Part shown: positions 27,001-33,000 of the stretch, piece by piece
How the letters are laid out: the number at the start of each line of letters is the position of its first letter
Numbering within the stretch: position 1 is the stretch's first letter
Assembly: GCA_047617745.1 (NCBI GenBank)
Contig: JBLGBN010000004.1
Span: 1-39,911, forward strand
DNA length: 39,911 bases
Source of the DNA: Candidatus Nanohaloarchaea archaeon
GTDB taxonomy: Archaea > Nanohalarchaeota > Nanosalinia > Nanosalinales > Nanosalinaceae
Reading direction: 5' to 3'
Program-made: the position numbers

Positions 27001-30000
27001 AGCAGATCAAGAAGGAGATGAAGGAGTTCGCAAACATCCGGATGGAGAGAAAGACCCTCATGAAGCTGGCGATCGAGAACTCCGACAAGGAAGGAGTTGA
27101 ACAACTTGAGGAAAACACGGCAACACAGCCGGCTTTCATCTTCTCAAACAAGGATCCGTTCCAGCTTTACTCCCTGATCCAGCAGAACAAATCAAGCGCT
27201 GCAGCACAGGGAGGAGAAGAAGCACCGAACGACATCGAAATCCCTGAAGGAGATACAGGGATCGGTCCAGGACCTATGCTTGGAAAGCTGCAGGGTGCAG
27301 GACTACAGGTACAGGTACAGGATGGTTCAATCCATGTCCAGCAGCCTGGCGTGATCGTCGAGAAAGGAGAGACAATAACCGACGACGATGCAGAAATCCT
27401 GAACCAGGTCGGGATCGAACCTCTAGAAATCGGCTTAGATCTCGACATTGCATTCAGCGAAGGAGAGATCTTCACAGCAGAAGAACTCGACATTGATGTC
27501 GACGAATACAGAGCAGATGTCGAAGCTGCAGCAACAGGCGCATTCAACCTTGCAGTCAACGCAGGAGTTGTCAACGAGACAACAGCATCAGCAATCATCT
27601 CACAGGCGTCCCAGAAGGCAGAAAACCTCGCGGTAAGCGAAGGACTGCCGGAAGAGGAGACAATCGAGAAATCAATCTCCTACGCAAAGAGCAACGCGGA
27701 AGGAGTCGACTCCCAGGTCGACCTTGAATCAGTAGAGATCGAAGAAGAAACCGAAGAAGAGGAATCAGAAGAATCTGAAGAGGAGCCTGAAGACGAAGAA
27801 ACAGAGGAAGAATCCGAGGAACAGGCTGAAGAACAGGAACCACAGGACGAAGAAGAAACAGAAGGGTCCGAGGAAGTCGACTACGACGAAATCGTTGACC
27901 AGTCTATCGACGACGCAAAAGAATCAATCGGGGAACTAGAAGATCCTGACTTCGAGGCACTGATCGAAGCCGAAGAAGACAACAAGGACAGGAAAACGTT
28001 CCTTGACTGGCTTGAAGGCCAGACAGAGTAAAAACTTCAAAACCGGCGTGAAGCCGGCTCTACATTTTCTATTACCTTATTCTTTTTATTCAAATGAGAT
28101 TAATTGAGGTCTGTGAAACATAAAACACTAGCAGTATTTCTACTGATATTAACATCTGTATCAGCGGTATCTGCAGAGCTGCCTGAGGACGCAACAGTAG
28201 AGACAGAAAGCGGTGTCGAGATTGGAAACCAGGTAGAAACGAGAAGTACCTCACCCGGTTTACCCAGTCGTTTAGGAAACTTTGTTGATGAGAATAAACA
28301 TTACATTCCTGGAGTTGATCGGGAACCTGCGACGAAAACAGAACTGATAATGGAGGCAAGGGTGGACGCAACTCAGCTAAGTCAGAAAGAAGTGGGTGCA
28401 GTATCAGGAGTTCCTGGGGTAAAGGTCAGGCTCAGCGACGTCACCGTCGGAGAAGTCGTAGAGAAAGCCAGGGACAGACGCGCCAAAACCAACTGGAATA
28501 AATATGCACAAGAAGCAGTGAACAGTATGGGCGTTTATGATCACAGCAGCAGGCCCATCGAAGTGGATAGCCCAGCGGACGTCAGTGTGAACGGCCACAG
28601 CTTCGTGGTTTCCAGCGATGGATATGTTTTTACAGAGGGCCAGGGATGGGCAGCACCACACTGCTGGGACGGTCTCAACTACCAGCCTCCAGAGTTCGAT
28701 GAATCACTAGTACCACAGGTCGATCCCAACCTCTCCACAACCTCACCAGGCGAGGAATGCCCATCCTGGGTAAGCGAGTCGAACCTTGAATGGCTTCCCC
28801 AAGGAGAAGAGCTAGCCCGGCCGGAAACATACTGCGCAGATATTCTTGGGAAACCAACTGCAGTTGAACTGGAGAAAAGACCCTCACCCGCATCCACCGA
28901 TAAACTCGAAAGAATATACTACGAGGGCGGAGAAAACGCAGTGGTTAAAACAGAATGTGTCAGAGAGAAGCTTGTACCTATGTGTGGTAAAGGCGATCCT
29001 AATAACTACTGCAAAAAGATGAACGTCAAACTCTGCAACTACTTCGATGCAAACTGCGGGAAAGCAGAAGATGTTACCATCGAAGAAGGAATGACCTGGA
29101 CATCCTACTGCGGCAACGAAACCAGTACTGACACGCTTGAAGGCAAGAAAACCTGTATAACCGAGAGAATAGGGCCTGAATGCGCAGGCCAGCCCGGTAC
29201 CGAGTGTACAAGAACCATGAGTTCACTGTGCTCCTATCTAGGCCTGGGATATAACCAGACCGGAAACGTCTGCGAGGTCGGATCTTAATGGACAAAACTA
29301 TGGCTGTGATAATCGGGGCGACAGCAGTACTTGTCTCAGGCATGATGGTACTGGCTATTTTCAACAGCAATATATCCGGGCTCAATTCAGATCTTAACTC
29401 TACAAGTGAGAGAGGCTGCGAGTTCCAGGTAGAGAACGCCGACGATCCTGAGGATATTTCAGAAAGATGCAGGCCTGAAGGCGGGGTTGACAGGTTTATC
29501 CTTAGAAACGATGAATCGGTTATTGACGCGGTAACAGGCGGCGGGTCTGGTTGAACTGCGATCAGATATTATCAATAAACCTGTCCGCTTTCTCGGCTTC
29601 CGACGATATAATTTTCTCTATTTTCTTCCTATTTCCGATCTCAAGGGCTTTCCGCATCGATTTCTCCCGGGAATAGAGAGTTTCTTCAAAACTATCTATC
29701 CTGAATTTTTCCTCACCTAGAACAAAATAATCATCCTCTATATCCCCTTCTTCATCCACAAGAGCGCCTAGTTCCGGTTCGAAATCTTTCTCAGCCAAGA
29801 CGTTTTGAAGGAACTTCGGGTAGTTGATCTGGTAGTAACTGGATCTGGAGTAGAAACGGAAAGGATATTCACCTAATTTCTGCAGAAGTTCGGCAAATCT
29901 TTCAGCATTACCGATATCATCTGTCTGGTACATAGGCGTGCCGTTACTGTTGACACTGACCGATGTCTGGATTCGTGTGAGGAGTTCGTTTATTTCCGGG

Positions 30001-33000
30001 AAATCAAATTCCGGGTTTTCAATAGTACTGCTTCTACCTTTGCCTTTAACTGCTTCAATATTGATACTCCTTTCTCCAAGTAGCTCAATAACTAGTTCCG
30101 CTGGCAGGAATGAATCCTTGTTCTTCCAGTTGTACATTTTGGAACTCGAGAACTCAGATTCTCTACAGAAGGATTTTATACCTCCTTCTTCCTCTATTTG
30201 GTTCCAGAAACCCTTTTCAGATTCTTCTGTTAATTTCAGGCGGACGTTTTCTGGCAGATTTGAAAGATTCACTGTATTTGTACTCAGTTATGTACAGAGT
30301 CTTTTTAATAGTGAACACCTCTTGGTATTTCATTCAGGTGAATCAACAATGGAACTAGTATACGCAGCACTGACCCTGCACGAAGCAGGAAAAGAAGTTA
30401 ACGAAGAAAACCTTCAGTCAATCGTCGACGCAGCAGACCTAGACGTCGAAGACTCAGAAGTCAAGGCTCTAGTCGCAGCACTCGAAGACGTAGATATCGA
30501 AGAAGCAATGGAAACAGCAGTCGCAGCAGGCGGCGCACCAGCACCTTCCGGCGGATCCGCAGACGAAGGAGGAGAAGCAGAAGAGGAAGAAGCTGACGAA
30601 GAAGGCGGCGACGAAGAAGAAGCTGCAGACGAAGACGAAGCAGCTGAAGGCCTAGGAGACCTATTCTAAGGTCTTCAACCTTCTTTTTCCCTTTATACCC
30701 TTTTCTATTTTAAGCTCAAGTACAAAATTGACATATGTCCCTAAACGTTACGGACACGGTAAAGTCAACATTTGGAAGCCTTAAGACAGAAACCGGAATG
30801 AAAGTTCTCGGACTGATGTTCGCAGTCCAGCTGGTAAACATGGCTGCATCCATGATGCTGGAAATGGGAGCTATGGCATCTGTAGCCGGAGGAGTTCTGA
30901 CATTTGCTGCAGCGATTGCAGGCATAGTAATAACAGTCGGAGCTCTCCGTTCGTTTGATACAGAGACTATAAGCCGGGAACAGTATACTGAAAACCTTCT
31001 GTGGCCAGTAATAAGACTTACAGGAGCAAATGTAGTTACAACAATACTGGCGTACGGAATCGCAGTCGTAGCACTTCTACCCGCAGTACTAGCTGCAGTA
31101 GCCTTAGGAGCAGGAACATCTGTAGGTACAGGCGCACTTGCCGGAGCAGGTTTACCGGTAGCCTTACTTGGAGTAGCCGGTTTCATTGCCGGAATCGCAG
31201 CATTCCTCTACATCTTCCTGACCCTGGTTGTCTCAATGCCTATGGTTGCGGCAGATGACAGACGAATGTTTGAAGCGCTGGACAAGAGCATCCAGAGAAC
31301 AAAAGGAAGTAAGTTCTCGATGTTCCTATCAATTCTACCAATAGGCGTAGTATATCTGATAGGAGTTGGAATCATCATAGCTCTTGCACCTTCACCTGGA
31401 GGAAGTCTGAGCGCACCCTTTGCAGTGGCAGCTTCAGTAGTCTCATCTCTAGTAGCAGTCCTGATGTACTCACTGCTAAACCAGTACCATCAGCGGCTTC
31501 CATAAAAAACACTTATCCTTTCTTTCTTCTTTTTCCCAACCGGTTTTAAACAAGAATCCATAAAGGTTCAAGTATGACACTGAATACCGCTGAAACTGTA
31601 AAATCGGCACTCGGAAACCTGACAACCCAACTCGGCGCATCACTTGTAGCAGTTATATTCTTCCTGCAGGTCACAAGCACCCTGGCCGGAAACATGACAG
31701 GAACAGGTTTAACCGGTACAGCGGGAACCCTTCTATCACTAATCCTTTTCGGCGCCACAGTAGTTGTAGCTCTAGGCGCACTTAGATCATTCGAATCAGG
31801 TGAACTGGAGAAAACACATTTCACCGAGAACCTAGCTATACCCATCCTTAGACTGGGAGGAGCCAATATAGTAATAACTGCCTTCGCAGTTCTGGCATTC
31901 GCACCGCTGGGAGCACTCTCATCAGCAATCGGAGGAACAGGAATAGCTGAAGCCGGCGCAGCCGCACTTATAATCAGTTTAACCGGTATAACAGTAAGCT
32001 TCGCAGCCTTCTTCTACGCAGTCCTCGCACTATGCCTCTCACTACCCGAGATAGCGGTCAAAGACAGGCGAATGTTCAAGGCCCTCGACAGCAGCGTACA
32101 ACGGACAAGAGGGCACAAAAAACAGATGATGCTCGCTCTAACCCCTGTAATCCTGCTTTACACAGTAAGCCTTCTGGTAAACCTTGGAACCGCCGGAAAC
32201 GGGCTAGCATCCAACCCTGTGATAATCATCTTCACAGGATTCCTGGGCGCAGTAACCGCAGTAACGGTCTACTCCACACTCATCGAGTTCCATCAGAGGA
32301 TCGGAGAAGAGGACGGAAACAAGGAAGACGGCTTTTTCTAACCCGTCATATCTGATAAAAAAATACAGGGAAAACAGATAGACATGGCAGAACTGGAAAA
32401 ACTCAAGAAACAGATCAAACAGGAAGCCTCCGAGAACCCGGAAAAATTCTTCGCCACAGAAGTGCTCAGAGAAAAAGGATTCACACGGGGAAAATGCGCC
32501 AACTGCGGAATGCATTTCTGGAGTTCAGATGAAGAAAGAAAGGTATGCGGAGAACCGGAATGCTCCGGCGGATATACTTTTATCGGAGACTCACCTATCG
32601 AGGATACCTATAGCTACACGGAAGCTTGGGAAAAATACCGGGACTTCATGACCTCAAGAGGATACGAGTCAATCGATAGATATCCTGTAGTGGCCAGATG
32701 GAGGGATGATGTAGAATTTGTCGGAGGATCTATCTACTGCTTTCAGCCTTACGTAGTTTCAGGAGAGGCAGAACCCCCAGCAGAAGAACTGATAATACCA
32801 CAGCCATCGCTCAGGTTCAACGATATTGACAACGTCGGGATAACCGGGAGACACTACGTTTTACACAACCATATCGGACAGACTTGTTTCAAACGTGAAA
32901 ACTACGATCAAAACAGGTACTTCCGCGACATGTTCGAGTTCGCGGTAGAAGAACTCGGAATACCGGAAGAGAAACTTATACTTCACGAAGATGCCTGGGG

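What a model noticed while it worked through the whole genome (the two positions that open the first line are those of the whole stretch)
29562..30272. Domesticated HTH-LAGLIDADG protein fixed head-to-head with ribosomal stalk gene P1
The unannotated g339 is an XRE-like HTH fused to a shrunken LAGLIDADG homing-endonuclease fold. It is single-copy, vertically kept across Nanosalinaceae and almost always divergent from rpl12/P1 with about 70 nt between the starts, inside the uL10-P1 operon: a domesticated homing endonuclease, probably a DNA-binding regulator like bacterial WhiA.
Evidence so far: Model pLDDT 91 from 43 homologs; best folds I-Tsp061I Z 10.3 (rmsd 3.6, 126 aligned), PI-PfuI Z 9.9, WhiA Z 8.6; residues 13-75 match XRE/Cro HTHs at Z about 4. 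One copy in 44 of 49 family genomes, the same 44 that show P1; adjacent and divergent in 41 of them by coordinates, 1 of 20 genomes in other families. The first LAGLIDADG helix reads ELLTRVxxSV, without the usual motif.
(Added by a program. Inside this text positions count along the whole contig: contig position 1 is position 1 of the stretch shown here. "Call 12" and the like, gene names such as g00115 and contig names such as C1 are that model's own, and its searches are not shown. The text may have been shortened before it was handed on; [...] marks where a part breaks off. The agent that wrote the report below was given it as the finding of a first reader that could run no searches.)

Follow-up and report, generated by a model that had tools for sequence, protein, structure and literature searches.

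The report
Tamed homing endonuclease splitting ribosomal operon
In tiny salt-loving archaea, a formerly selfish DNA-cutting gene has lost its cutting residues, sits backwards between two ribosomal protein genes, and is kept together with a short conserved DNA box it probably binds, so it looks like a parasite turned into a switch for an essential ribosomal gene.

Summary
Confirmed and extended. g339 (29562-30272, minus strand) is an XRE-like HTH plus one and a half LAGLIDADG domains. It is single-copy in 44 of 49 family genomes and divergent from P1.

Its relatives are free-standing HTH-LAGLIDADG-wHTH genes of other DPANN archaea with intact motifs, each family parked beside a housekeeping gene. 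The best-scoring family sits in the same uL10-P1 gap and is patchy (2 of 30 loci). Against these relatives, catalytic D1 is Ser (46 of 46) and catalytic E2 is variable; the invariant 'DE' is not the catalytic pair.

P1 has its own TATA box. Just upstream lies a conserved 17-bp box (30278-30294), essentially unique per genome. It is doubled in two genomes where the genes were pushed apart, and arrived with g339 in another family.

Corrections: g339 splits the operon rather than lying inside it. Inheritance is not strictly vertical. It is not a WhiA member. The tree does not join g339 to the P1-site family (AU p 0.16).

Best reading: a nuclease-dead DNA-binding regulator of its own and P1's promoter. 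Binding and regulation are untested.

The parts
29562..30272 (-). g339, 236 aa: HTH plus degenerate double-motif LAGLIDADG protein
30075..30227 (-). XRE/Cro-like HTH (residues 16-66); recognition helix S42-K52 conserved and basic
   Evidence: DSSP; Z about 4 to Cro/XRE HTHs; weak Pfam HTH hits; net charge +0.18 per residue and top-residue frequency 0.81 for residues 42-53
29778..29993 (-). Complete first LAGLIDADG domain (residues 94-165); motif-1 helix about one turn shorter; catalytic Asp replaced by invariant S104 (29961-29963), Gly by V105
29745..29771 (-). Second LAGLIDADG motif (residues 168-176, consensus xxALVDExG); catalytic position 175 variable across the family (Glu in this genome)
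29565..29744 (-). Truncated second domain (lacks the second helix and part of the sheet; acidic) and two C-terminal helices; the relatives' winged HTH is absent
   Evidence: DSSP of g339 against DSSP of intact relative P0154; charge
30278..30294 (+). Conserved 17-bp box (consensus YTGTAWTCANYTATGYA), candidate operator: 8-24 nt upstream of the P1 TATA box and over the inferred g339 start region
   Evidence: binding not tested
30302..30308 (.). TATA-like TTTTTAA, placed as a P1 promoter on +; read on - it lies about 31 nt before the usual g339 start (probable shared bidirectional core)
   Evidence: conserved; spacing compared with leaderless promoters of this genome; function inferred
30337..30341 (+). 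Shine-Dalgarno-like GGTGA of P1
30349..30669 (+). Ribosomal stalk protein P1 (rpl12)
   Evidence: Pfam PF00428 E 4.6e-10
26868..28031 (+). uL10 (P0), last gene of the uL11-uL1-uL10 run, cut off from P1
   Evidence: Pfam PF00466 and PF17777

Best explanation
g339 descends from a free-standing (intronless) HTH-LAGLIDADG homing endonuclease gene, most likely of the family that occupies the uL10-P1 gap in other DPANN archaea. In the ancestor of this family it ended up inverted in that gap. This cut P1 off from the uL11-uL1-uL10 transcript and gave P1 its own promoter, back to back with g339's. The protein lost its catalytic acids, half of its second domain and its winged HTH, but kept the N-terminal HTH and the first DNA-binding sheet. 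It most likely binds the 17-bp box, repressing its own promoter (the box covers its start) and tuning P1 transcription (the box lies just upstream of the P1 TATA). Gene, box and promoter form a cassette that is kept under selection and is now and then swapped between lineages by recombination. SHOWN by computation: homology, motif loss, position, selection, the box and its uniqueness, tree conflicts. INFERRED, with rough odds: origin from the P1-site family in particular (0.75), no nuclease activity (0.9), binding to the box (0.65), effect on P1 (0.5). The sign of the effect is unknown.
For: Homology: profile hits beyond the core family include 290-500 aa proteins with LAGLIDADG_3 and HTH Pfam hits; HHalign 99.8% over residues 1-185; one relative folds as HTH, full double LAGLIDADG (Z 16.6, rmsd 2.1, 178 aligned) and wHTH.

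Motifs: 59 of 59 relatives have D-G at 104-105 and 57 of 59 an acid at 175; g339 has S in 46 of 46, and Glu at 175 in 12 of 46, Lys in 14.

Site: of 26 metagenome loci, the 11 best by g339-profile score comprise 8 in the uL10-P1 gap, 2 directly behind P1 and 1 on a contig too short; none of the other 15 lies by uL10 or P1. Of the 30 best GTDB loci read, 3 lie in the gap, including the two best whole-gene scores. The site is empty in 28 of 30 nearest P1 loci there, and in 16 of 18 P1 loci of other nanohaloarchaeal families.

Selection: dN/dS 0.06-0.27 in the 17 unsaturated of 45 congeneric pairs; 14 positions are at least 90% basic.

Box: 17.1 bits when aligned on TATA alone, against 3.8 bits at the next gene's promoter in the same 26 genomes; top site of this genome with a matrix trained without its genus; only 4 off-locus matches in 50 genomes against 11 control matches; two copies where g339 and P1 were pushed apart in G002 and G003; exact match in G069, which carries g339 between native flanks.

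Expression in N. occultus: uL10 9450, intervening gene 187, P1 3735 RPKM (PMC10266531 Table S1; orthology by gene order only).

Precedent: WhiA, and autorepression by I-TevI (PMC3384342 passages).
Against: The ML tree puts g339 on a long branch outside a 98/93-supported group that holds the P1-site family; the AU test merely fails to reject their union (p 0.156). Identity to that family is 24%, against 18-20% to most other site groups and 23% to one single sequence. Intact P1-site genes have no such box upstream (best 10.7 bits). In G032 the box is at P1 only and in G008/G009 it is 44-49 nt from the g339 start codon; G042 has no box near g339 (P1 side masked by N). P1 RNA is below uL10 RNA in the one data set, which does not suggest strong activation. 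No binding, knockout or start-site data. A regulon of a single promoter pair is thin reason for family-wide retention. Kin are not independent in any of these counts.
Confidence: 0.55

Rival explanations
1. g339 is a domesticated, nuclease-dead protein with another job (RNA binding, ribosome assembly, chromatin, protein interaction). Its place is historical, and the box is bound by another host factor or serves only autorepression.
For: LAGLIDADG proteins have become RNA maturases, and WhiA may have handed DNA binding to its HTH (PMC3384342 passages). The first domain is not net basic (-0.05 per residue). New C-terminal helices are conserved. In 3 of 46 loci g339 is 0.8-2 kb from P1.
Against: The box is essentially found only at this locus, appears outside the family only together with g339, and stays at fixed spacing to the P1 TATA when g339's start moves. 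The recognition helix is the most conserved, most basic segment.
Confidence: 0.22
2. The box is no protein site but a constraint of two overlapping core promoters (start-site melting and initiator for leaderless g339, TFB contact for P1), and g339's function is unrelated to it.
For: The box lies exactly between the shared TATA and the g339 start.
Against: Leaderless-type promoters in this genome show only TATA, AA at -11/-10 and T at -1; CATA occurs in 10 of 236. A control promoter keeps 3.8 bits against 17.1. In G002 a copy persists at the g339 start although the TATA spacing there has changed.
Confidence: 0.1
3. g339 is still a selfish, mobile nuclease or nickase with an atypical active site (S104 with D173/E174) and spreads by homing; the box is only its autorepression operator.
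For: The g339 tree needs 17 changes of genus label (minimum 12) where uL10 needs 11 (minimum 11). G030's g339 is 80% identical to another genus's while its uL10 is 93% identical to a congener's. G069 holds g339 at a site empty in its congener. D173 and E174 are nearly invariant.
Against: The motif-1 acid is Ser in 46 of 46 and the motif-2 catalytic position is most often Lys; these acids are described as essential. No empty P1 site among 45 family genomes with P1. No internal stops; the shortest frames are 169 and 218 aa (both at contig ends) and 220 aa, unlike the split and stop-bearing mobile relatives. Ribosomal genes are a strict control; no ordinary-gene control was run.
Confidence: 0.08

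Closest known systems
WhiA/DUF199 (bacterial domesticated LAGLIDADG regulator)
   Same: LAGLIDADG fold without the catalytic acids, joined to an HTH, single-copy across a clade; regulates its own reading frame (PMC3384342 passages); Z 8.5.
   Different: HTH is N-terminal and XRE-like here, C-terminal in WhiA; the second LAGLIDADG domain is half deleted; no WhiA Pfam or NCBIfam hit; nearest relatives are archaeal free-standing endonucleases; one candidate site per genome rather than a regulon. An independent event.
Free-standing homing endonucleases (T4 SegF/SegG, F-CphI; intronless homing)
   Same: Optional genes between two conserved genes, patchy in distribution (PMC6083498 passages). The intact relatives fit this pattern at uL10-P1 and at other genes.
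   Different: The examples in the passages read are phage genes; F-CphI uses an Endo VII motif and Seg proteins are GIY-YIG (recalled). Here the elements are chromosomal archaeal LAGLIDADG genes with two HTHs. g339 itself is fixed, inverted and lacks the catalytic acids.
Double-motif LAGLIDADG endonucleases (I-Tsp061I, I-DmoI, PI-PfuI)
   Same: Fold (Z 10.4, 7.8, 9.9); both motif helices are recognisable.
   Different: No intron or intein host, catalytic acids lost, linker about 20 residues shorter, second saddle truncated.
I-TevI autorepressor
   Same: A homing endonuclease that represses its own promoter; here the box covers g339's start.
   Different: I-TevI is an active intron-encoded enzyme of another fold (GIY-YIG; reference title); no host gene shares its operator (recalled).

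Membership tests
LAGLIDADG superfamily (fold) | [quoted passage not shown] | tested here: met
   First domain complete, second partial; HHalign 99.8% to relatives that pass Pfam LAGLIDADG_3
Active LAGLIDADG homing endonuclease | Acid at the base of motif helix 1 | tested here: not met
   S104 in 46 of 46 against D in 59 of 59 relatives
Active LAGLIDADG homing endonuclease | Conserved acid at the base of motif helix 2 | tested here: not met
   Position 175: K14 E12 T6 S5 I4 R2 Q1 N1 gap1 of 46; acid in 57 of 59 relatives. This genome's copy has Glu.
Active LAGLIDADG homing endonuclease | Two full DNA-binding sheets in a monomer | tested here: not met
   Second helix and part of the sheet of domain 2 missing
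Active LAGLIDADG homing endonuclease | Cleaves the empty allele | not testable with these tools
   Needs an assay
Free-standing homing endonuclease gene | Outside introns and inteins, between conserved genes | tested here: met
   no Rfam match at gathering score in 7 loci
Free-standing homing endonuclease gene | Optional and patchy among close kin | tested here: not met
   g339 is in all 45 family genomes that show P1; met for the intact relatives (2 of 30)
P1-site HTH-LAGLIDADG-wHTH family (found here) | g339 groups with it in a tree | tested here: inconclusive
   Not joined in the ML tree; AU p 0.156; best similarity and same site
WhiA/DUF199 | N-terminal LAGLIDADG with C-terminal HTH | tested here: not met
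   Order reversed
WhiA/DUF199 | Sequence match to WhiA profiles | tested here: not met
   No WhiA family among the 25 of 29 Pfam families shown for 100 members; no NCBIfam hit for two members
WhiA/DUF199 | Catalytic acids absent | tested here: met
   (shared by analogy)
WhiA/DUF199 | Binds promoters and regulates transcription | not testable with these tools
   Only a candidate box

The most novel reading that the evidence does not exclude
Promoter capture as addiction. The element cut an essential ribosomal gene (P1) off from its operon and left it on a promoter that needs the element's own protein bound at the box. Losing g339 then silences P1, so a nuclease-dead selfish gene became undeletable without giving any benefit, and it moves as a self-sufficient cassette of gene, box and promoter. 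The box may be a relic of the ancestral homing target, since it faintly resembles P1 codons 1-6.
Probability: 0.2. Interest if true: 0.92.

Novelty: new variant of a known kind. Interest (0 to 1): 0.74.

Why it matters
Domestication of a LAGLIDADG endonuclease into a regulator is known from WhiA, compared in the passages read only with distant structural homologs. Here the intact mobile relatives, the insertion site, empty alleles, a candidate operator and a cultured host with transcriptome data all exist, so the step from endonuclease to transcription factor can be tested directly. It would also be a dedicated regulator of an archaeal ribosomal stalk gene in genomes of about 1 Mb. The work exposes a large, apparently undescribed set of chromosomal free-standing HTH-LAGLIDADG genes in DPANN archaea, each tied to a housekeeping gene.

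Tried and rejected
PDB sequence search with the family profile: 0 matches at E up to 10. Foldseek: nothing at E up to 0.001. NCBIfam: no hit for g339. Viral contigs: no relative. Rfam: nothing in 7 loci. No RNA holder was listed for the window. The homodimer prediction gave no verdict. Earlier-findings look-ups returned nothing. The sigma-70 scan does not suit archaeal promoters.

G069 as a misbinned family contig: rejected, because uL10 and P1 on that contig group with its congener G068; a chimeric assembly is not excluded. D173-E174 as catalytic remnant: rejected by register. The box ATG as a conserved upstream start: rejected, frame varies and some copies read GTG. The box as a general ribosomal-promoter motif: rejected.

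Box as relic of the homing site: the matrix ranks P1 codons 1-6 in the top 20 of about 2026 positions in 15 of 30 Woesearchaeota-order loci and 8 of 18 other nanohaloarchaeal loci, but scores are low (at most 8.6 bits) and the idea was post hoc; kept as a lead only. Covariation of box and protein residues: looked at by eye, nothing clear. A first anchoring script used a wrong spacing and was redone (two rows mis-anchored there, re-scored). A quick tree was superseded.

Eight literature searches listed no paper on this protein or on free-standing LAGLIDADG genes at rpl12; the library lacks most subscription papers and bioRxiv supplements.
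Full report
OBSERVATION. The ORF is real: 29562..30272 on the minus strand, 236 aa, GTG start, 76 nt from the ATG of P1 at 30349 (P1 and uL10 by Pfam). It has one match in 44 of 49 other genomes of the family, and in 23 of 23 genomes at least 90% complete. The five genomes without it also lack P1, so these look like assembly gaps. Outside the family it was found in 1 of 20 genomes. In 46 of 46 loci it lies upstream of and opposite to P1. Gaps are 60-78 nt in 40, 112-166 nt in 3 and 821-2039 nt in 3. uL10 was seen converging on it in 32 of the 45 other loci, within 69 nt in 17; in this window two more genes intervene. The model (pLDDT 89.7) matches I-Tsp061I at Z 10.4, PI-PfuI at 9.9 and WhiA at 8.5, and Cro/XRE HTHs at about 4.

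WHERE IT COMES FROM. A profile search gave 80 hits: 30 strong ones (the core family, some partial), then weaker ones, among them proteins of 290-500 aa matching residues 5-165. Most of the 30 I scanned carry LAGLIDADG_3 and HTH Pfam hits. Their alignment shows intact motifs, HLIxDG and RAxxDDEG, and aligns to the g339 profile at 99.8% over HTH, first domain and second motif. One of them, P0154, folds as HTH, full double LAGLIDADG (Z 16.6) and winged HTH. Its gene lies between uL10 and P1, on their strand, in a record titled Ca. Woesearchaeota.

THE MOBILE RELATIVES. In that genome's order, 71 of 240 genomes have such genes, 1-8 each, several with internal stops (only 8 candidates per genome were scored). 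I read the 30 best loci. They are free-standing and abut various housekeeping genes; 3 lie in the uL10-P1 gap, namely the two best whole-gene scores against the g339 profile (6e-22 and 7e-23; the other 27 score 4e-9 or weaker) and one split gene. Neighbour names other than uL10, P1 and the AlaRS-like gene are my recognition from sequence, not tested. Of 26 metagenome loci, the 11 best-scoring are 8 in the gap (5 with both flanks seen), 2 near-identical ones directly behind P1, and 1 on a short contig; none of the other 15 lies there. The gap is empty in 28 of the 30 P1 loci nearest to that genome's. Among 18 P1 loci in other nanohaloarchaeal families, 16 have uL10 abutting P1, one is rearranged, one holds g339. 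This is the pattern of intronless homing as described in PMC6083498 (passages). Against: the ML tree makes the P1-site family one clade (100/99) but puts g339 on a long branch outside a 98/93 group holding it (51 of 76 aligned rows used). The AU test does not reject their union (p 0.156), and identity is 24% against 18-23% to other groups. Descent from the superfamily is firm; descent from the P1-site family is likely, not shown.

NUCLEASE LOSS. In register, HLIGDGSVN faces RIQTSVSVN and AIVDDEG faces ALVDExG. All 59 relatives have D-G at positions 104-105, and 57 an acid at 175. g339 has Ser in 46 of 46, and at 175 Lys in 14, Glu in 12, others in 20. D173 and E174 are motif positions 6 and 7, not the metal ligand at 8. 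The acids at the helix bases are described as essential, and their loss is what marks WhiA (PMC3384342 passages). The linker is about 20 residues shorter, and the second domain lacks a helix and part of its sheet. Yet the gene is under purifying selection: dN/dS 0.06-0.27 in 17 unsaturated of 45 congeneric pairs, 28 saturated. The HTH recognition helix is the most conserved and most basic segment, 14 positions are at least 90% basic, and the second-domain remnant is acidic.

THE DIVERGENT PROMOTER. On the P1 strand the gap reads: g339 start, 17-bp box, 7 nt, TTTTTAA, about 28 variable nt, GGTGA, P1 ATG. By the spacing of 236 leaderless-type promoters from crude ORF calls in this genome, the TATA fits a P1 start about 15 nt before its ATG, and read backwards a near-leaderless g339 start; both are inferences. 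In N. occultus the gene between uL10 and P1 has 187 RPKM against 9450 and 3735 (PMC10266531 Table S1, part 1 of 8 read). So the operon transcript does not run through to P1. Orthology of that gene rests on gene order, and strandedness was not found in the passages searched.

THE BOX. Aligned on the TATA alone it holds 17.1 bits, against 5.4 downstream in the same gap and 3.8 at the next gene's promoter in the same 26 genomes (those control genes include paralogs). 44 of 45 loci score at least 12 bits (G042 set aside for N; the matrix came from 41 of these loci). A matrix trained without this genus ranks the site first in this genome, and it is the only one of the top 25 with a TATA in place. 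A box-plus-TATA pattern, derived from these loci, hits the locus in 42 of 50 genomes and only 4 other places, against 11 control hits. In 20 other-family genomes the only exact match is beside g339 in G069 (itself among the source loci), with 3 two-mismatch matches and 7 control hits. Where a 223-aa gene was inserted (G002) or the gap grew (G003), there is a box at the g339 start and another before the P1 TATA. In G032 it stays with P1 only; in G008 and G009 it keeps its P1 spacing, 44-49 nt from the g339 start codon. Intact P1-site genes have no such box.

INHERITANCE. The uL10 tree fits genus labels at the minimum (11 of 11 changes, 45 rows); the g339 tree needs 17 against a minimum of 12 (46 rows; both quick trees, with different row sets). 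G030's g339 is 80% identical to another genus's while its uL10 is 93% identical to a congener's. G069 has uL10 and P1 like its empty-site congener G068, with g339 and box between them. So the cassette is kept but sometimes exchanged. No ordinary-gene control was run, so I cannot say the rate is unusual.

MECHANISM. Most likely (0.55) the protein binds the box with its HTH and first sheet, represses its own start and modulates P1. An archaeal stalk holds several P1 per uL10 (recalled), which could favour separate control, but P1 RNA was below uL10 RNA in the one data set. Rivals: another function with a historical position (0.22), a pure core-promoter constraint (0.10), a still-active atypical nuclease (0.08). 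The boldest version is that P1's promoter needs g339, making a dead selfish gene undeletable (0.2, counted within the main reading).

COMPARISON AND NOVELTY. It works, by inference, like WhiA but fails WhiA membership (domain order, profiles); it belongs to the LAGLIDADG fold but fails the active-enzyme tests. Eight searches listed nothing on it (listings only). Also seen: passages of PMC8987985, which has no LAGLIDADG or WhiA mention; supplement rows of PMC11803251, whose table lists uL10 and P1 but not the gene between; a supplement search of PMC11001535 without hits. Unseen supplements and subscription papers may bear on novelty. Verdict: real; a new variant of a known kind; interest 0.74.

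Noticed in passing
L072, L080-L108, L109-L134: A large set of free-standing HTH-LAGLIDADG-wHTH genes with intact motifs in Woesearchaeota-order genomes (71 of 240), in site-specific clades beside different housekeeping genes (P1, an AlaRS-like editing gene; others recognised by eye as tRNA splicing endonuclease, topoisomerase I, Elp3, HtpX, AspRS, Hjc, FtsY). Looks like chromosomal intronless homing on a large scale; not found in the searches run.
   Followed up: partly
L072:1430-1500, and the 75 nt upstream of the gene in L080, L112 and L119: Four intact P1-site genes with their own TATA share a GACAC-containing motif about 20-25 nt upstream of it, unlike the g339 box; possibly their autoregulatory operator.
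   Followed up: no
L032 (G069:C153:1-3988): A genome of another family carries g339, an exact box and a 126-aa ORF between native uL10 and P1, while its congener G068 has an empty 13-nt gap.
   Followed up: yes
L114, L115: An intact member of the P1-site family lies directly downstream of P1, convergent, so the family takes several positions around the same gene; this suggests the target lies in P1.
   Followed up: partly
window 28104-29554 (+): A 394-aa Cys-rich, signal-peptide-like ORF and an 88-aa ORF with a pilin-like hydrophobic N-terminus fill the uL10-g339 gap here; no Pfam or NCBIfam hit. The gap takes up different genes in many genomes (0.3-3 kb).
   Followed up: no
window 30735-32341 (+): Two tandem paralogous membrane proteins (35% identical, weak GPDPase_memb hit) follow P1; one or both follow it in many family genomes.
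   Followed up: no
G000:C3 (L077:1027-1764) and G000:C9 (L078:877-1851): Two more stand-alone HTH-LAGLIDADG genes in this genome, both with intact GDG and DTDG motifs.
   Followed up: partly
L081 (G080:C64): P1-site endonuclease gene split into two frames at the HTH-LAGLIDADG boundary: decay of a mobile copy.
   Followed up: partly
L049 (G042:C3:761000-771000): Deepest-branching family member by uL10: g339 abuts uL10 but three other genes separate it from P1, and no box is seen near it (P1 side partly N).
   Followed up: partly
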